DNA of 64,000 nucleotides, taken from Minisyncoccota bacterium. Its GTDB lineage: Bacteria; Patescibacteriota; Microgenomatia; UBA1400; UBA12028. The stretch covers positions 263,472 to 327,471 of the forward strand of contig JACRHV010000004.1 of NCBI GenBank assembly GCA_016211945.1, read 5' to 3'. Positions 305-21,143 of this stretch are shown one piece after another. Made by a program: the position numbers and the translations under genes. Under the pieces are notes generated by a model. The model did not search any database. It had not been told where the DNA came from and was given only the letters and a program-made list of their open reading frames with translations. Position 1 is the first letter of the stretch. Each line of letters starts with the position of its first letter.

Positions 305-1714
305 CTATTTTTTCTCCACTTTCTTTATTTGAAGTGCTAACTCATCCAACTGTTCCTGAGTAACCGGTGCTGGTGCATCCATCACTGCGGTACGACCTGT
401 GGAGGTCATTGGAAATGCAATCGCTTCTCTTAATGAAGTTTCGCCGGCAAGAATCATAACGTGCCGATCAAGTCCGAGCGCAATACCACCATGTGGCGGT
501 GTTCCAACCTCAAAAGCCTCGAGCATATGCCCAATGCTCGCTTGAATCTCAGCATCAGAGTATCCCATGGTGCGCATGGTTGCTCGCAACACCTCGGGTT
601 CATGCGCCCGAATACTTCCGCCGCCAGCCTCGTATCCGTTGCACACTAAGTCATATTGCGTTGTTAAAATTTCCCCGGTATGCTCGCCTTTTAAATGCCA
701 TTCCACATGGTCATCAATCGGGCGACTGAATGGATTGTGCGTAAAGGTCCATCCACTCTTTCCATCACGAACTTCAGCAACATCTCCTTTATCAACTTGT
801 TTGAAAAATGGAAATTTTATAACCCAAGCAAAAGCTAGTGTTCCGTCTTTTTTTTCTTCCTCGGTACGCAGGTCAAATTTATCTGCGCCAAATTTTTTGA
901 CTGCATCAGCGTATTCAAATATCGGAAATGTCTCATCTTTAAGTTTTCCGCCAACTGTTTTTATCGCAGTTTTTACCACATCTTCCACGGTTTTCATCAC
1001 GTCTTCTTGCTTCACAAAACTCATTTCCAAATCAAGCTGGGTGAACTCAAATCCGCGGTCAGCGCGCAAGTCTTCATCGCGCATGCATCGTGCAATTTGA
1101 TAGTATCGCTCAACGCCGGCAGTCATAAGAAGTTGTTTGTATTGCTGTGGGCTTTGCGGAAGTGCGTAGAATTTTCCAGGTTGGAATCGCGATGGCACTA
1201 AGAAGTCACGCGCACCTTCTTTTGTAGCTTTTGTAAGGAGTGGTGTTTCCACCTCAACAAATTCTCTTTTATGGAGTTCTTCGCGAATTGCCTGGAAATA
1301 CTTGGAGCGAAGCCGCATGATCTTCTGCATACGCTCTCTGCGAAGATCGAGGTAGCGGTATCGCAGTCGTACTTCCTCGTTTACTTCAAGCCCATCACCC
1401 TCAACCTGTAATGGAAGTTCCTTCGCTTTGTTCAATACCGTGTATTCCTGAACATCAATCTCAACCATTCCTGTCGCGAGTTTCTCGTTGACCATGTTTG
1501 CAGGCCGCTCTTTGATGAGTCCAACAACTTCGAGAACAGACTCTACTGTCAACTCACCCATTTTTTGAAATCCAACGCACTGCACAAAACCTGATCGATC
1601 GCGTAGATCAATAAACGTCAATTTTCCATGGTCGCGTTTTGTTGCTACCCACCCCTGAAGTTTTACTGATTCACCCACGCGTTTTGGTGCCTCACCGATC
1701 ATTGTTCTTTCCAT
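305..1714 (-). CDS. aspS: aspartyl-tRNA synthetase
   Basis: The ORF 305..1747 carries class II aaRS motifs (FHNPFSRP, QSPQQYKQLLM, GLDRHVMILAGETSLREAIAFP). Start refined to the internal ATG at 1712-1714 (MERTMIGEAP...), which is preceded by AGGAGGAACT. Confidence 0.9.
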   Translation of the reverse strand: MERTMIGEAPKRVGESVKLQGWVATKRDHGKLTFIDLRDRSGFVQCVGFQKMGELTVESVLEVVGLIKERPANMVNEKLATGMVEIDVQEYTVLNKAKELPLQVEGDGLEVNEEVRLRYRYLDLRRERMQKIMRLRSKYFQAIREELHKREFVEVETPLLTKATKEGARDFLVPSRFQPGKFYALPQSPQQYKQLLMTAGVERYYQIARCMRDEDLRADRGFEFTQLDLEMSFVKQEDVMKTVEDVVKTAIKTVGGKLKDETFPIFEYADAVKKFGADKFDLRTEEEKKDGTLAFAWVIKFPFFKQVDKGDVAEVRDGKSGWTFTHNPFSRPIDDHVEWHLKGEHTGEILTTQYDLVCNGYEAGGGSIRAHEPEVLRATMRTMGYSDAEIQASIGHMLEAFEVGTPPHGGIALGLDRHVMILAGETSLREAIAFPMTSTGRTAVMDAPAPVTQEQLDELALQIKKVEKK

Positions 1715-1747
1715 AGTTCCTCCTGTTTTTCCTGCGTATTCGGGCAT

Positions 1748-2060
1748 AAAAAAAGCACGATGCCCTTTATCTGCGAAAGGGTCTTCGTGCCTGAAGACGG
1801 TGCCACCTACTCGTATCTTATTCCAGCTATTTCGGGCTTACCCGATGCGGCTCATCTGGTGTCAACAGCGTCCATACCGCATAACTTCTGAGGAAAGTGT
1901 ACCAAAAATTGGGAGCTTGACAAGACCCAGTTCCAAGGGGTATCCTTCACAAGATCATGAAAAACTGTTGGCATCTCATTACCAATCAATACATTTTTGT
2001 CCTTCGCGGACAGAGAGGTTTGGTGGCGTAGATGCAGTAGATTAGCAGCAGAAACGAAAT
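1748..2060 (-). promoter_or_regulatory. Putative T-box riboswitch leader controlling aspS
   Basis: On the minus strand immediately 5' of the aspS SD: T-box-like core AGUAGGUGGCACCGUC (GGTGG-N-ACCG; the + strand reads cggtgccacc at 1798-1807). It is followed by an intrinsic terminator GCACGAAGACCCUUUCG...AAAGGGCAUCGUGC plus a U7 run (+ coordinates 1748-1790). An alternative antiterminator pairing GUCUUC/GAAGAC overlaps the terminator 5' arm. The UGGC bulge would pair with the GCCA 3' end of tRNA-Asp (discriminator G). Stem I and the specifier were not resolved by eye. Confidence 0.5.
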
Positions 2061-2062
2061 AC

Positions 2063-2093
2063 CAAACCTCCGAAAAGAATCGGAGGTTTTTTT
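2063..2093. terminator. Stable hairpin with flanking A- and T-runs (bidirectional intrinsic-terminator-like)
   Basis: AAACCTCCGAAAAGAATCGGAGGTTTTTTTG has an 8-bp GC-containing stem and a T7 run on the + strand. It sits between the aspS leader region and the first small ORF at 2120. Confidence 0.4.
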
Positions 2094-2119
2094 GTTTCTA
2101 GGGAAAGGAGGAGAAAATA

Positions 2120-2290
2120 CATGGAGAAAAATAGCGGTCGAGTAGAAATGCCAATGCTTCCAGTGTCGCTCGAGGGTTGGCATGAAGAATCGAATACTAT
2201 AGGTACACAACATATGCAGAAGTATGTGAGTTCTGCATTGCGGATGCGTGCGAGTTTAGAGCGAAAAAATATACAAGAAAAAAGAAAATA
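2120..2290 (+). CDS. small hypothetical protein (56 aa)
   Basis: ATG preceded by GGAAAGGAGGAGAAAATAC. Translation MEKNSGRVEMPMLPVSLEGWHEESNTIGTQHMQKYVSSALRMRASLERKNIQEKRK. Below the 60-aa cut-off of the supplied ORF track. First of four consecutive SD-led small ORFs. Confidence 0.35.
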
Positions 2291-2300
2291 AGGAGGAAAG

Positions 2301-2474
2301 ATGAGTAATGAAAAAGACCCCGTACGAGAAGCAGCAATTCAAGCACTAACTTCTCGAGGTATTACACCAGAAGAAATGAGTTCTGACCAATATGAGGCAG
2401 CTGTAAAAAAACAAATGGAAGCAATTAGTATCACAAGTACAGCGGTGAGGTTATTGGCTGGAGCAACAAATTAA
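2301..2474 (+). CDS. small hypothetical protein (57 aa)
   Basis: ATG preceded by AAGGAGGAAAG. Translation MSNEKDPVREAAIQALTSRGITPEEMSSDQYEAAVKKQMEAISITSTAVRLLAGATN. Not in the ORF track (<60 aa). Confidence 0.4.
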   Translation: MSNEKDPVREAAIQALTSRGITPEEMSSDQYEAAVKKQMEAISITSTAVRLLAGATN

Positions 2475-2487
2475 ACAAAGGAGAACT

Positions 2488-2685
2488 ATGCCAAATTTTG
2501 ATACATTACAACCAGAAAAAGTGGCGGCTATTACAAAAGCGATTAAAAATAAAAATACTGCTTATCTAAATGATGGTGATGGTGATTTATTTATTGCCGT
2601 TTTACGTGGAGAAATAGAACTTCCAGATGTTTCTTCTGCGTTCATTACTACTGCGCGTGAGTGGTATCAATCATTGACTTCTTAG
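2488..2685 (+). CDS. small hypothetical protein (65 aa) with a DGDGD acidic motif
   Basis: ORF-track entry. ATG preceded by AAAGGAGAACT. Contains LNDGDGDLFIAVLRGEIELPD. Confidence 0.4.
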   Translation: MPNFDTLQPEKVAAITKAIKNKNTAYLNDGDGDLFIAVLRGEIELPDVSSAFITTAREWYQSLTS

Positions 2686-2696
2686 TCGGAACAAAT

Positions 2697-3053
2697 ATGA
2701 CAGATAAGTTACTCGTTGTTGTTGGCGGTATCCACAATACTGAGGTTCGTAAACTAGGAAATAGTGTATCCGGAAACGTGCTCGTTGACGGAAATTATCG
2801 AGATATTATTCCTAAAATACGAGAAAAAAGACCCCACACCGTTGTCGTTTGCGGTGCATTAATTGCAGTATGTATAGGAAGAATAGCAGAGGCTGCATTA
2901 GAATATGGGTCCAACGTTATTATCGACCTCAAGCACTGTCGTATAGATGAACATGATTCTGGAGATACAAGTAATCTTGACAAAAGACATGCTGAACTCA
3001 ATACCTATTGGCCACATGTTGTTGATGACCAAAATGTACAAATTATTTCCTAA
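2697..3053 (+). CDS. hypothetical protein (118 aa), possible small alpha/beta fold
   Basis: In-frame ATG inside track ORF 2661..3053. Translation MTDKLLVVVGGIHNTEVRKLGN...VVVCGALIAVCIGRIAEAALEYGSNVIIDLKH. Alternating hydrophobic beta-strand-like segments. No recognisable family. Confidence 0.35.
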   Translation: MTDKLLVVVGGIHNTEVRKLGNSVSGNVLVDGNYRDIIPKIREKRPHTVVVCGALIAVCIGRIAEAALEYGSNVIIDLKHCRIDEHDSGDTSNLDKRHAELNTYWPHVVDDQNVQIIS

Positions 3054-7782: not shown

Positions 7783-9167
7783 GTTTTCTCCGTTTGTGTA
7801 GGATCTTTCAAAAAGATACGAAGAAGCGTTCGCGTGACAACAATACCAGTAAATAATCCTACAAGAATTCCCAAGGCTAGGGTAAGTGCGAAACCCCGAA
7901 CCATACCGCTACGATTCAAAAACTCAAACTCAAACGGATTAAAAAGAATGAAACTTGTAAATAGTGTTGCAACGTTTGCGTCTTTAATACTGTCCCACGC
8001 TCGGCCAAATCCCAATCGCATTGCTAGATCGAACGGCTTGCCCAGTCGCAGTTCTTCCTTCATCCGTTCAAAGATTAAAATATTACTGTCCACCACCATC
8101 CCAATAGACAACAAAAGACCGGCAATACCGGGTAATGTTAAGGTAATTGGCATCAATTTATAGATCGCAATCGTGATGAGGGCGTACATCGCAAGTGCGA
8201 GATCGGCCAACATACCTTTCCAGCCGTACAACAGAATCATAAAAAGCGCGACCAACCCAACACCGATAAGTCCAGCACGAGCCGTCTTCTCAACAGCTTC
8301 TTTTCCTAAACTCGCGCCAACCGTTTCCTGCTGCACAACCTGAATTGGGACCGGCAAGGCGCCTGCATTTAACTGCACACTAAGTTGTTTTGCTGACTCA
8401 ACAGTAAACCCGCCACTAATTTCTGCGATCCCACTCAAAATCGCCTCGTTCACACTCGGAAGTGTCACCGGAAAATCATCCAAAAAGATACCCACGCGTT
8501 TTCCAACATTACGTGCGGTGATTTCACCAAACTTTTTCTTCCCTTCATCGCTAAACTCCAAGGTCACAATCGGCTGTGCATTTTTACTACTGAACTGCAC
8601 TCCCGATCGTTTTAAGTCTTTCCCTGTCAACCCCGTGGGGAGAAAGTTCGCAAACGGATCTTGCTGAACTTGTGCTTGAGTCTGAGGTTTTGCCGACTGT
8701 GTAGACTCTTCACGAAAATCAAGTTGCGCCGTCGTACCAATCAATGCAACTGCCTGCGACGCATCGGTTACTCCAGGCAATTCCACAATAATACGATAGG
8801 TATTACCTGAAAACGATGTCTTAATAGTAGACTCACTCACACCATACAAATCAACACGACGAGCAATAATTTCGCGCGCACTTTGAAATGCAGACTCTCT
8901 ATCTGTTTGCGCAATCTTGCTCATATCTGCTTCTAGCACCACACGCGTTCCGCCTTGAATATCCAAACCCATCTTTAACTCCAAATCGCGCTTAAACGGG
9001 ATGTTATACTTTGATAAATCGAGAGCAGGTCGATCAAACTGATTCGAAATATCGATATTTTTCCAATGCAACTCAATAGGTACTTTTGCGGGCAATGCAA
9101 TAACCAAACATACAGCAGCCAAAAGAATAAGAAACACCAGTGTTTTTAATGGCAGTTTGTTTTTCAT
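7779..9167 (-). CDS. secD: protein translocase subunit SecD
   Basis: 462 aa with a periplasmic domain plus a C-terminal 6-TM SecDF-type region (GIAGLLLSIGMVVDSNILIFERM). Confidence 0.9.
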   Translation of the reverse strand: MKNKLPLKTLVFLILLAAVCLVIALPAKVPIELHWKNIDISNQFDRPALDLSKYNIPFKRDLELKMGLDIQGGTRVVLEADMSKIAQTDRESAFQSAREIIARRVDLYGVSESTIKTSFSGNTYRIIVELPGVTDASQAVALIGTTAQLDFREESTQSAKPQTQAQVQQDPFANFLPTGLTGKDLKRSGVQFSSKNAQPIVTLEFSDEGKKKFGEITARNVGKRVGIFLDDFPVTLPSVNEAILSGIAEISGGFTVESAKQLSVQLNAGALPVPIQVVQQETVGASLGKEAVEKTARAGLIGVGLVALFMILLYGWKGMLADLALAMYALITIAIYKLMPITLTLPGIAGLLLSIGMVVDSNILIFERMKEELRLGKPFDLAMRLGFGRAWDSIKDANVATLFTSFILFNPFEFEFLNRSGMVRGFALTLALGILVGLFTGIVVTRTLLRIFLKDPTQTEKT

Positions 9168-20798: not shown

Positions 20799-20904
20799 AG
20801 AGAAACATCTTCTTCTGTAGCGGATTGCATCAATCGTCTCATAATGAGATAATTGAACATATAAATGAGATGAAAGGAGGCCTTCCAAAGGTTGTAGATA
20901 TTTG

Positions 20905-21075
20905 AGCGTGTGGCCCAACATCTGTTGGGATACGAGGAATGGGTCTTTTACTCTGTAAAAGAAATCGGGCTTTTCTTTAATGAAAAGTATCTGCGGACAC
21001 CCATCGGTTGCTACAGTCGTAAGTTTTGTTTTAAATCTTTTCCGTAAGGAAAAGGACAGAGAACAGAAACACGTA
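20905..21075 (+). ncRNA. Putative glmS ribozyme (GlcN6P-responsive) in the glmS 5' UTR
   Basis: Begins AGCGUG. Conserved core ...GGGAUACGAGGAAUGGGUC (ACGAGGA as in UUGACGAGGA). GCGGACACCCAUCGG corresponds to GGCGGAUGCCUCCCGG, with AUGGGU/ACCCAU replacing GGAGG/CCUCC as a compensatory pair. ACAGUCGUAAG matches ACAGCCGUAAG. It lies 70 nt upstream of the glmS start. Confidence 0.6.
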
Positions 21076-21143
21076 GCCAAACCTTTATTCTTCATTTTTT
21101 TTCTTTTCTTTAACAGTGTTGAGCATTTTCACAAGGAGGTACT

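What the first reader, a model, noticed from the sequence alone, without database searches (positions are those of the whole stretch)
1748..2095. T-box riboswitch-like leader on aspS
The T-box consensus is AAUUAGGGUGGNACCGCG. On the minus strand, 110-50 nt upstream of the aspS start codon, the leader reads AGUAGGUGGCACCGUC, which keeps the GGUGG-N-ACCG core and carries a UGGC bulge complementary to the GCCA end of tRNA-Asp. A strong intrinsic terminator (GCACGAAGACCCUUUCG / AAAGGGCAUCGUGC + U7) follows immediately. The alternative GUCUUC:GAAGAC helix would sequester the terminator's 5' arm, which is the classical terminator/antiterminator toggle. tRNA-sensing control of aspS in this otherwise minimal genome is notable. 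The region also carries a long hairpin (2063-2093) whose role is unclear.
Basis: partly seen in the sequence, partly recalled or inferred. Interest (0 to 1): 0.55.

Follow-up and report, generated by a model that had tools for sequence, protein, structure and literature searches.

The report
Minimal T-box riboswitch upstream of aspS
The leader of the aspartyl-tRNA synthetase gene in this tiny-genome (Patescibacteria/CPR) bacterium is most likely a real but unusually stripped-down T-box riboswitch that reads uncharged tRNA-Asp to decide whether transcription continues, and standard RNA-family scans miss it completely.

Summary
On the minus strand, downstream of a conserved promoter (1923-1896), lie: a 38-nt Stem I (1882-1845) with a K-turn-like base and a 7-nt loop UUGACAC showing the Asp codon GAC plus A; the T-box Stem IIA/B pseudoknot block (1845-1825); an antiterminator whose 7-nt bulge is UGGCACC (1813-1774); and an overlapping intrinsic terminator (1790-1748) just before the aspS RBS. 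The composite signature occurs once in the window and in 0 of 100 shuffles. Relatives carry the same leader. In short leaders the loop codon matches the downstream synthetase (AUC-ileS, GUC-valS, UGG-trpS, GAC-aspS), and the UGGN base tracks the gene class. Against a 90%-identical relative the elements are 84-96% identical, versus 54% at synonymous sites. Unusually, there is no Stem I distal platform, no Stem II/S-turn and no Stem III, yet the output is a terminator: a new variant of a known kind. The hairpin at 2064-2089 is not part of it; it terminates a separate, conserved + strand leader of unknown function.

The parts
1918..1923 (-). -35 box TTGTCA of the aspS/T-box promoter
   Evidence: Promoter scan. 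CTTGTCAA is conserved in L201, L202, L203 and L133, and as CTTGTAGA in L204. The -35 to -10 stretch is 96% identical between WIN and L201 versus 54% at synonymous sites.
1896..1904 (-). Extended -10 box TGGTACACT; predicted transcription start near 1889
   Evidence: GGTACACT is conserved in most of the close relatives; L203 reads TGTACACT. The start site is inferred, not mapped.
1845..1882 (-). Ultrashort Stem I: C-stem AUGCGGU/GCCGCAU, 3-nt bulge AUG, tandem GA/GA (1872-1871 and 1853-1852, K-turn-like), short helix CUG/CAG, 7-nt specifier loop
   Evidence: Sequence. The same topology folds independently in 12 of 12 out-of-clade short leaders. The C-stem covaries across the clade: GCGG/CCGC, CAGC/GCUG, UGGC/GCCA. 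It ends exactly where Stem IIA begins. It is not significant as an isolated motif.
1860..1863 (-). Specifier codon GAC (1863-1861) plus the conserved purine A (1860), within loop UUGACAC (1865-1859)
   Evidence: The loop is YUGACAC in L201-L204 and CCGACAC in L133, and related in L006, L177, L162, L076 and L145. In short leaders the loop codon matches the downstream synthetase.
1825..1845 (-). Stem IIA/B pseudoknot element with F-box: UCGGG-UAAG-CCCGA-AAUAGCU
   Evidence: The same block aligns to the Stem IIA hairpin and F-box positions of Rfam RF00230 in canonical hits above gathering (L087 124 bits, L085 100.8 bits). The closing pair is canonical in 100 of 100 leaders with 4 Watson-Crick types.
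1814..1824 (-). Purine-rich linker GGAAUAAGAUA; there is no room for a Stem III
   Evidence: 33 non-redundant metagenome leaders have the same short spacing.
1774..1813 (-). Antiterminator: helix A1 CGAG(U)AGG/CCUUUCG, 7-nt T-box bulge UGGCACC (1805-1799), helix A2 GUCUUC/GAAGAC, loop AGGCAC
   Evidence: Constrained fold -10.9 kcal/mol with the same topology as most of the other short leaders folded. A2 covaries with 3-5 pair types per position across the class, and WIN pairs at every position.
1748..1790 (-). Intrinsic terminator GCACGA-AGA-CCCUUU...AAAGGG-C-AUCGUGC plus U7; its 5' arm overlaps the loop, the A2 3' strand and the A1 3' strand of the antiterminator
   Evidence: RNAfold -16.6 kcal/mol alone; the terminator state of the platform is -20.4 versus -10.9 for the antiterminator. 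Conserved in the clade. 95.5% identical between WIN and L201.
305..1724 (-). Regulated gene: RBS AGGAGG (1724-1719) and aspS CDS (1714-305, 469 aa)
   Evidence: Pfam tRNA-synt_2 plus the OB anticodon-binding domain. NCBIfam aspartate--tRNA ligase. 100% identical to a protein of a Candidatus Pacebacteria MAG.
1991..2095 (+). Separate element, not part of the T-box: a conserved + strand leader with a 5' hairpin (1999-2011), a competitor strand GAGGUUUGGUGG (2015-2026) that pairs with ACCAAACCUC (2061-2070), and a terminator (2064-2093), directly upstream of the RBS and ATG 2121 of small ORFs
   Evidence: Terminator scan. Nascent-RNA folds in 6 genomes. Covariance model R1 hits. 96% identical between WIN and L201. 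No Rfam family.

Best explanation
This is a transcription-attenuating T-box riboswitch specific for tRNA-Asp, in a strongly reduced form. RNA polymerase starts near 1889 from a conserved promoter. The nascent leader forms a 38-nt Stem I whose 7-nt terminal loop shows the codon GAC followed by A. It then forms the Stem IIA/B pseudoknot, and then the expression platform. By default the stronger terminator hairpin (1790-1748, with U7) forms and transcription stops before aspS. When tRNA-Asp is uncharged, its GUC anticodon pairs with GAC, and its free 3' end (expected G73-CCA) pairs with UGGC in the 7-nt bulge. This stabilises the weaker antiterminator (A1 plus A2), which ties up the terminator's 5' arm, so transcription reads through into aspS. 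An aminoacylated 3' end cannot make that contact, so termination wins. Shown here: the sequence elements, their mutually exclusive folds and energies, their conservation and covariation, the codon-to-gene and UGGN-to-gene correspondences, and purifying selection. Inferred from established T-box mechanism: tRNA binding, discrimination of charged from uncharged tRNA, the start site, and termination in vivo.
For: The composite pseudoknot-plus-T-box signature is unique in the window, with 0 of 100 shuffles matching. Rfam's own model aligns the GGGUAAGCCCGUUA block to its Stem IIA/F-box in canonical T-boxes above gathering, including an aspS one (L087 124 bits, L085 100.8 bits). aspS leaders of relatives give significant sub-gathering RF00230 hits (L008 51 bits E 2e-8, L013 47.5 bits, L076 28, L044 27; L145 23 bits). 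Close relatives (AspRS 78-90% identical) keep the promoter, the YUGACAC loop and an invariant platform. The loop codon matches the NCBIfam-identified downstream gene: AUC-ileS, GUC-valS, UGG-trpS, GAC-aspS. The UGGN base tracks the gene class: aspS 22 UGGC to 2 UGGU, ileS 26 UGGU to 1 UGGC, valS 9 of 9 UGGU, trpS 3 of 3 UGGC. A2 and the Stem IIA closing pair covary. Terminator state -20.4 versus antiterminator -10.9 kcal/mol. WIN versus L201 identity: platform 95.5%, pseudoknot plus linker 93.5%, Stem I 84% with every change structure-neutral or pair-gaining and none in the specifier loop or the tandem GA, against 54% at 4-fold degenerate sites and 62-67% in the unstructured flanks.
Against: RF00230 gives no hit in the window at gathering or at E<=10. 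A sequence-only profile of Stem I built from other leaders does not find the window's Stem I. A K-turn-plus-hairpin descriptor matches as often in random sequence (67 versus 67.8), so Stem I rests on its position, clade conservation and codon logic. The helix under the loop has only 3 Watson-Crick pairs, and RNAfold does not choose it for WIN alone. The leader lacks the tRNA-elbow platform, the Stem II S-turn and Stem III. The literature describes these as important or essential for tRNA binding (PMC7583486; PMC11297988 reports no measurable tRNA binding after shortening Stem II in the M. tuberculosis ileS T-box). No tRNA-Asp gene was available to confirm G73 and the GUC anticodon. One aspS leader with GAC has UGGU (L145). 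There are no expression data.
Confidence: 0.88

Rival explanations
1. A decayed T-box relic. The leader descends from a T-box, but after losing the elbow platform, Stem II and Stem III it no longer binds tRNA usefully, and it now acts as a constitutive partial terminator that just sets a low basal level of aspS.
For: Three modules reported as important for tRNA binding are missing (PMC7583486, PMC11297988). Rfam sees nothing.
Against: A relic would drift, yet the specifier loop and the UGGCACC bulge are conserved across relatives whose AspRS differs by 10-25%. The leader elements are 84-96% identical where synonymous sites are 54%. Codon-gene and UGGN-gene matching holds across the whole reduced class. 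29 of 33 leaders without a Stem III keep a terminator, which indicates a maintained working design.
Confidence: 0.07
2. A chance resemblance. GGUGGCACCG is a chance 10-mer next to an ordinary terminator that ends an upstream transcript, and aspS has its own promoter.
For: The 10-mer alone occurs in 19% of shuffled windows. There is no Rfam hit.
Against: The composite signature has 0 of 100 chance matches. Only 23 nt separate the U-run from the RBS, which leaves no room for a promoter. The only conserved promoter lies upstream of the whole leader. The same leader sits upstream of aspS in many genomes.
Confidence: 0.02
3. A T-box that controls translation, as in actinobacterial ileS, by hiding the ribosome-binding site rather than by terminating transcription.
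For: Ultrashort Stem I has so far been described mainly for translational T-boxes (PMC7583486, PMC7778990).
Against: The alternative to the antiterminator is a GC-rich hairpin followed by U7, which is a standard intrinsic terminator. The RBS AGGAGG (1724-1719) lies 23 nt beyond the U-run and is not part of either helix. No conserved anti-SD sequence was found; the CCUC at the 5' end of the leader is not conserved in L201.
Confidence: 0.03

Closest known systems
Canonical transcriptional (class I) T-box leaders, e.g. B. subtilis tyrS and Firmicute aspS leaders (Rfam RF00230)
   Same: The T-box core with UGGN in a 7-nt bulge between helices A1 and A2, a competing intrinsic terminator, a K-turn-like base of Stem I, a cognate codon followed by a purine, the Stem IIA/B pseudoknot with F-box, and regulation of an aminoacyl-tRNA synthetase gene. 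The canonical aspS leader L085 (100.8 bits) shares the pseudoknot block and UGGC.
   Different: Stem I is 38 nt instead of about 90 nt. It has no internal specifier loop, no AG bulge and no distal loop, so no tRNA-elbow contact. There is no Stem II/S-turn and no Stem III. No RF00230 hit at E<=10.
Ultrashort-Stem-I (class II) ileS T-boxes of Actinobacteria (M. tuberculosis, M. smegmatis, N. farcinica)
   Same: A short Stem I with the codon in a terminal loop and no elbow-binding platform, a retained Stem IIA/B pseudoknot, and the same T-box bulge logic (PMC7583486, PMC11297988).
   Different: Those act on translation through an SD sequestrator, whereas this one has an intrinsic terminator. Those depend on a long Stem II with an S-turn and also have a Stem III, and here both are absent. 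The phylum differs (Patescibacteria) and so does the amino acid (Asp rather than Ile).
glyQS T-boxes (natural T-boxes without a Stem II domain)
   Same: A natural precedent for working without the Stem II S-turn. The published rationale is a strong GGC:GCC codon-anticodon duplex (PMC7583486). GAC:GUC here, and UGG:CCA in the other Stem II-less leader L140, each have two G-C pairs.
   Different: glyQS keeps the long Stem I with the elbow platform and keeps Stem III, and it lacks the IIA/B pseudoknot. This leader does the reverse: no platform, no Stem III, pseudoknot retained.
Reduced T-box leaders in environmental contigs found here (L133, L201-L205 aspS; L140 trpS; L086, L096, L121 and others)
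   Same: The same reduced plan with a terminator. L201 (aspS) and L140 (trpS) also lack Stem II entirely. 29 of 33 leaders without a Stem III keep a terminator.
   Different: Most keep at least a short hairpin, usually without an S-turn, between Stem I and the pseudoknot. The Ile, Val and Asn leaders keep an AGUAGA-type S-turn.

Membership tests
T-box riboswitch (tRNA-sensing leader; Rfam RF00230) | T-box sequence (consensus AGGGUGGNACCGCG) forming an antiterminator in which UGGNACC is a 7-nt bulge between helices A1 and A2 | tested here: met
   GGUGGCACCG matches 10 of 10 core positions. The constrained fold gives A1 (7 bp with one bulged U), the bulge UGGCACC and A2 (6 bp), the same topology as most of the other short leaders folded. 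A2 covaries across the class.
T-box riboswitch (tRNA-sensing leader; Rfam RF00230) | A mutually exclusive terminator (or sequestrator) that shares sequence with the 3' half of the antiterminator | tested here: met
   Terminator 1790-1748 with U7. Its 5' arm GCACGAAGACCCUUUCG contains the A2 and A1 3' strands. Energies -20.4 versus -10.9 kcal/mol. Conserved in 6 relatives.
T-box riboswitch (tRNA-sensing leader; Rfam RF00230) | Stem I presenting a specifier codon cognate to the regulated gene, followed by a purine | tested here: met
   Loop UUGACAC: GAC (Asp) plus A, upstream of aspS. The loop is conserved in the clade. Codon-gene matches were verified with NCBIfam for ileS, valS, trpS and aspS leaders of the same design. 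The codon sits in a terminal loop, not an internal one.
T-box riboswitch (tRNA-sensing leader; Rfam RF00230) | K-turn (GA motif) at the base of Stem I | tested here: inconclusive
   The sequence fits: C-stem, 3-nt bulge AUG, GA (1872-1871) opposite GA (1853-1852). The C-stem covaries. But the descriptor is no more frequent than in random sequence, and whether a kink actually forms cannot be computed here.
T-box riboswitch (tRNA-sensing leader; Rfam RF00230) | The N of UGGN is complementary to the discriminator base (N73) of the cognate tRNA | tested here: inconclusive
   No tRNA-Asp gene in the window or in about 100 loci scanned. Indirect support: aspS 22 UGGC to 2 UGGU, trpS 3 of 3 UGGC, ileS 26 UGGU to 1 UGGC, valS 9 of 9 UGGU. 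This fits G73 for tRNA-Asp and tRNA-Trp and A73 for tRNA-Ile and tRNA-Val in bacteria (my own knowledge, not tested here).
T-box riboswitch (tRNA-sensing leader; Rfam RF00230) | Stem IIA/B pseudoknot with F-box (present in most classes, absent in glyQS) | tested here: met
   UCGGGUAAGCCCGAAAUAGCU at 1845-1825. The same block aligns to Stem IIA/F-box of RF00230 in L087 and L085. The closing pair is canonical in 100 of 100 leaders. A loop G is paired with C after AUAGC in 20 of 21 cases.
T-box riboswitch (tRNA-sensing leader; Rfam RF00230) | Stem I distal platform (AG bulge plus distal loop) that stacks on the tRNA elbow; typical of transcriptional T-boxes | tested here: not met
   Stem I is 38 nt and ends in the specifier loop. 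The conserved promoter leaves no room upstream. In L204 only about 55 nt separate the divergent ORF from the promoter.
T-box riboswitch (tRNA-sensing leader; Rfam RF00230) | Stem II with an S-turn that reads the codon-anticodon minor groove | tested here: not met
   The K-turn 3' strand GAGCCGCAU runs directly into Stem IIA with no intervening nucleotides. The same holds in L201 and L140 (3 nt between). Relatives L133 and L202-L204 have only a short hairpin without AGUA.
T-box riboswitch (tRNA-sensing leader; Rfam RF00230) | Stem III preceding the antiterminator | tested here: not met
   Only the 11-nt purine-rich linker GGAAUAAGAUA lies between the pseudoknot and A1.
T-box riboswitch (tRNA-sensing leader; Rfam RF00230) | Score at or above the curated gathering threshold of RF00230 (93 bits) | tested here: not met
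   No hit at gathering and none at E<=10 on 1600-2400. Scores fall as the architecture shrinks: 124, 101, 67, 55, 23 bits, then none.
T-box riboswitch (tRNA-sensing leader; Rfam RF00230) | Antitermination dependent on uncharged tRNA | not testable with these tools
   Needs in vitro transcription or reporter assays.
Class II (ultrashort Stem I, translational) T-box of Actinobacteria | Short Stem I with the specifier in a terminal loop and no elbow platform | tested here: met
Class II (ultrashort Stem I, translational) T-box of Actinobacteria | Shine-Dalgarno sequestrator/antisequestrator as the expression platform, plus an elongated Stem II with an S-turn | tested here: not met
   The expression platform is an intrinsic terminator with U7. 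The RBS lies 23 nt downstream and is unpaired. There is no Stem II.

The most novel reading that the evidence does not exclude
This leader, together with L201 (aspS) and L140 (trpS), is a working natural minimal T-box. About 105 nt (K-turn hairpin with a terminal codon loop, the IIA/B pseudoknot, and the antiterminator bulge) would then be enough for co-transcriptional, charge-sensitive tRNA sensing, without the elbow platform, the Stem II S-turn or Stem III. That would contradict the current view that transcriptional T-boxes need a long Stem I and that Stem II becomes essential once Stem I is truncated. It would also extend T-box regulation to Patescibacteria/CPR, where it may be widespread but hidden from RF00230-based annotation. 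A weaker version is that an unknown helper factor or unusually slow transcription compensates for the missing parts.
Probability: 0.4. Interest if true: 0.65.

Novelty: new variant of a known kind. Interest (0 to 1): 0.5.

Why it matters
T-boxes are the textbook case of an RNA that reads another RNA, and they are being pursued as antibiotic targets and engineering parts. Structural work has assigned essential roles to the Stem I elbow platform, the Stem II S-turn and Stem III. A conserved natural leader under purifying selection that lacks all three, yet still pairs a cognate codon and a UGGN bulge with a terminator, gives a ready-made minimal construct for testing what tRNA sensing really requires. 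It also shows that tRNA-sensing attenuation exists in reduced CPR genomes, a group absent from the published T-box surveys I could search. And it shows that the curated Rfam threshold misses this class: scores drop from 124 bits to nothing as modules are lost, so riboswitch censuses of CPR genomes probably undercount T-boxes.

Tried and rejected
(1) Rfam RF00230 at gathering and at E<=10 found no T-box in the window. I traced this to lost modules rather than to absence.

(2) An nhmmer profile of the Stem I module from 12 out-of-clade leaders did not find the window's Stem I; the best hits were elsewhere at E about 1. The full-core profile finds 1883-1774 (E 3e-13), but that hit is dominated by the motifs I used for selection.

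(3) An explicit K-turn-plus-hairpin descriptor is not enriched over random sequence (67 versus 67.8; with an Asp codon 8 versus 4.6). Its only weight is that the match ends exactly at Stem IIA (roughly p 0.002-0.004 for a match within 60 nt, my estimate from those counts).

(4) I gave up on a covariance model of the short T-box class because the MAFFT alignments had register shifts in Stem I and in the antiterminator 3' strands. I counted pairs per sequence instead.

(5) I looked for a tRNA-Asp gene in the window and about 100 loci and found none.

(6) I considered the first GAC (1872-1870) as the specifier and rejected it. It is the K-turn GA plus C, and it reads GAG or GAA in L202 and L203.

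(7) I considered a long Stem I hidden upstream of 1890 and rejected it. The conserved promoter sits there, that region is the + strand promoter, and L204 has no space.

(8) I considered the 2064-2089 hairpin as part of the T-box leader and rejected it.

(9) Within the clade the terminator shows no compensatory changes, because it is too conserved to inform.

(10) The small ORFs downstream of the + strand element have no Pfam or PHROG hits and no tblastn similarity between genomes.

(11) The literature searches for T-box together with CPR, Patescibacteria or Saccharibacteria returned nothing. The library is incomplete, so this is only weak evidence of novelty.
Full report
CONTEXT. The window comes from a Patescibacteria (CPR) genome. 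Its AspRS is 100% identical to a protein annotated in a Candidatus Pacebacteria MAG, and all close relatives are Patescibacteria MAGs. aspS runs on the minus strand from ATG 1714 to 305 (469 aa; Pfam; NCBIfam aspartate--tRNA ligase). A strong RBS, AGGAGG, lies at 1724-1719. Small ORFs on the + strand start at 2121. So 1715-2120 is a divergent intergenic region.

OBSERVATION CHECK.
- AGUAGGUGGCACCGUC at 1811-1796.
- The terminator GCACGAAGACCCUUUCG...AAAGGGCAUCGUGC+U7 at 1790-1748.
- The competing GUCUUC:GAAGAC helix.
- A hairpin at 2064-2089.
The 10-mer GGTGGNACCG is weak evidence on its own (0.19 expected; 19 of 100 shuffles have a match). Rfam's T-box model RF00230 finds nothing at gathering or at E<=10 on 1600-2400.

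WHY IT IS STILL A T-BOX.
1. Same core in relatives. Among 80 aspS loci from other Patescibacteria, several have GGUGGCACC followed by an antiterminator/terminator pair upstream of aspS. Four of them give significant sub-gathering RF00230 hits: L008 51 bits (E 2e-8), L013 47.5, L076 28, L044 27.
2. Shared pseudoknot block. The window shares a second block with L002 and L006: (C/U)GGGUA(A/G)GCCC..AUAGC.GGAAU. The hits include canonical long-Stem-I T-boxes that Rfam calls above gathering (L087 124 bits; L085, an aspS leader, 100.8 bits). In those alignments the block sits on the model's Stem IIA hairpin and F-box. So the window has the T-box Stem IIA/B pseudoknot at the correct distance from the T-box core. 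The composite occurs once in the window and in 0 of 100 shuffles.
3. Why Rfam misses it. Rfam scores fall step by step as modules are lost: 124 and 101 bits (canonical), 67 (L089, ultrashort ileS), 55 (L104, valS), 23 (L145, Asp), and nothing for L133, L177, L192 and the window. The miss is a sensitivity limit and does not show absence.

ANATOMY (minus strand; coordinates).
- Promoter: -35 TTGTCA 1923-1918 and extended -10 TGGTACACT 1904-1896, conserved in most of the close relatives.
- Stem I, 1882-1845: C-stem AUGCGGU/GCCGCAU, bulge AUG, tandem GA/GA, short helix CUG/CAG, loop UUGACAC.
- Specifier: GAC 1863-1861, followed by A 1860.
- Stem IIA/B element, 1845-1825.
- Purine-rich linker, 1824-1814.
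- Antiterminator, 1813-1774: A1 CGAG(U)AGG/CCUUUCG, bulge UGGCACC 1805-1799, A2 GUCUUC/GAAGAC.
- Terminator, 1790-1748.
The terminator state of the platform is -20.4 kcal/mol and the antiterminator is -10.9. That is the expected default-off arrangement, in which the antiterminator needs extra stabilisation.

COMPARATIVE SUPPORT.
- Close relatives reached through the protein (L201 90%, L202 84%, L203 and L204 78% AspRS identity; L133 from the metagenome scan) keep the promoter, the YUGACAC loop and an invariant platform.
- The C-stem changes as whole Watson-Crick helices: GCGG/CCGC, CAGC/GCUG, UGGC/GCCA.
- Across the wider short class, A2 shows 3-5 pair types per position, and the window pairs at every position.
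- The Stem IIA closing pair is canonical in 100 of 100 leaders with four Watson-Crick types.
- All 12 out-of-clade Stem I modules fold on their own into C-stem, asymmetric loop and codon hairpin.
- In these short leaders the loop codon matches the downstream gene as identified by NCBIfam: AUC-ileS (L084, L106), GUC-valS (L104, L112), UGG-trpS (L081), GAC-aspS (WIN, L145).
- The variable base of UGGN follows the gene class: aspS 22 UGGC to 2 UGGU, trpS 3 of 3 UGGC, ileS 26 UGGU to 1 UGGC, valS 9 of 9 UGGU. This is as expected from bacterial discriminator bases, which I take from my own knowledge and did not test here.
- Selection. WIN and L201 are 54% identical at 188 four-fold degenerate sites of aspS. 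By comparison they are 95.5% identical in antiterminator plus terminator, 93.5% in pseudoknot plus linker, 96% in the promoter and 84% in Stem I. The unstructured 5' leader (62%) and the terminator-to-ATG spacer (67%) are close to neutral. The six Stem I differences are all structure-neutral or pair-gaining (U.G to U-A in the C-stem; G.A to U-A in the helix), and none touches the specifier loop or the tandem GA.

WEAK POINTS.
- Stem I is not significant as an isolated motif. A sequence-only profile misses it, and a structural descriptor matches as often in random sequence. RNAfold does not pick the 3-bp helix for WIN alone. Its support is positional (it ends exactly at Stem IIA), phylogenetic, and the codon logic.
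- No tRNA-Asp gene was available.
- L145 pairs GAC with UGGU.
- Nothing here is experimental.

WHAT IS UNUSUAL. The leader has no Stem I distal platform, no Stem II/S-turn (the K-turn 3' strand runs straight into Stem IIA) and no Stem III. Yet its output is an intrinsic terminator. [quoted passage not shown] PMC11297988 reports no measurable tRNA binding after shortening Stem II in the M. tuberculosis ileS T-box. The window is not a one-off:
- L201 has the same design, and the trpS leader L140 also lacks Stem II.
- L133 and L202-L204 keep only a short hairpin without an S-turn.
- 33 non-redundant metagenome leaders have no room for a Stem III, and 29 of them keep a terminator.
- The Ile, Val and Asn leaders of the class keep an AGUAGA-type S-turn, while the Asp, Trp, Arg and Ser ones tend to lose it. 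This loosely parallels the published explanation for glyQS, but I did not test it statistically.
TBDB searched its ultrashort-class model only in Actinobacteria (PMC7778990). An older phylum table lists no CPR (PMC2494555). I found no paper linking T-boxes with CPR, Patescibacteria or Saccharibacteria, though the library is incomplete.

THE OTHER HALF OF THE FLAGGED INTERVAL. The hairpin at 2064-2089 lies upstream of the T-box promoter and has its U-run on the + strand. It is the terminator of a separate + strand leader, 1991-2095, which sits directly before the RBS and ATG 2121.
- In six genomes the nascent RNA folds into a 5' hairpin plus a 10-11 bp helix (WIN GAGGUUUGGU / ACCAAACCUC). This helix locks up the terminator's 5' arm before the 3' arm is made (z -3.1 to -4.9).
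- The helix covaries: UUUGGU/ACCAAA, UUGGUA/UACCAA, UCGUGUG/CACACGA.
- A covariance model built from four copies finds strong copies in L202 and L204 (81 and 80 bits). It also finds weaker ones, mostly just divergent from aspS, in L058, L069, L011, L035, L009 and L001.
- The element is 96% identical between WIN and L201 and matches no Rfam family.
- The downstream small ORFs are fast-evolving and unannotatable.
Its ligand or partner is unknown. I treat it as a partly followed side-finding.

VERDICT. It is a new variant of a known kind: a minimal T-box from a CPR genome that standard annotation does not see.

Noticed in passing
window 1991-2095 (+); also L201 2123-2227 (-), L133 7328-7427 (+), L203 2124-2223 (-), L202 106-207 (-), L204 73-177 (-), and weaker hits in L058, L069, L011, L035, L009, L001: A conserved leader-like RNA of about 100 nt, divergent from aspS. 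It has a 5' hairpin, a 10-11 bp helix that competes with a downstream intrinsic terminator, and then the RBS of a small ORF. The competing helix covaries. The element is 96% identical between WIN and L201, versus 54% at synonymous sites. It matches no Rfam family. Its ligand or partner is unknown, so it is a candidate new riboregulator of Microgenomates-type CPR.
   Followed up: partly
window 2121-3053 (+): Four small ORFs (56, 57, 65 and 118 aa) with strong RBSs downstream of the + strand leader. They have no Pfam or PHROG hits. ORF1 is only 67% identical between WIN and L201, where AspRS is 90%. A short SLEGW/Y motif near the N-terminus recurs in L011 and perhaps in L133.
   Followed up: partly
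window 20894-21080 (+): A glmS ribozyme called by Rfam above gathering (56.9 bits versus 37), so this reduced genome has at least two classic Gram-positive-type cis-regulatory RNAs.
   Followed up: no
L126 about 8860-8990 (+): A short-Stem-I T-box whose loop shows AAC (Asn) with UGGU, upstream of an AspRS fused to a YbaK-like deacylase domain (617 aa). This suggests tRNA-Asn sensing that controls a probably non-discriminating AspRS.
   Followed up: partly
L145 (aspS, GAC with UGGU) and L146 (ileS, AUC with UGGC): Two exceptions to the otherwise tight link between UGGN and gene class. Possible causes are atypical tRNA discriminator bases in those lineages or a tolerated mismatch.
   Followed up: no
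L089, L104, L145, L133, L177, L192 and the window: The RF00230 gathering threshold (93 bits) excludes the whole reduced class: scores are 67, 55 and 23 bits, or no hit. T-box counts in CPR and environmental genomes based on Rfam are therefore probably underestimates.
   Followed up: partly
window 305-1714 (-): This AspRS is only 469 aa and matches the 590-aa bacterial aspS model in two stretches, so it appears to lack the central insertion domain of bacterial-type AspRS. Many relatives have the same length, and some carry a C-terminal YbaK (PF04073) fusion.
   Followed up: no
window 1715-1747 (-): The mechanical ORF list extends aspS to an ATG at 1747 (480 aa), which would overlap the terminator's U-run. 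The RBS, the homologues and the database protein (469 aa) all support ATG 1714.
   Followed up: yes
window 1917-1923, both strands: CTTGTCAAG reads as a -35-like hexamer on both strands (TTGTCA on minus, TTGACA on plus). The minus-strand reading is the conserved T-box promoter. The plus-strand one has a poor -10 and is probably a by-product of the near-palindrome.
   Followed up: partly
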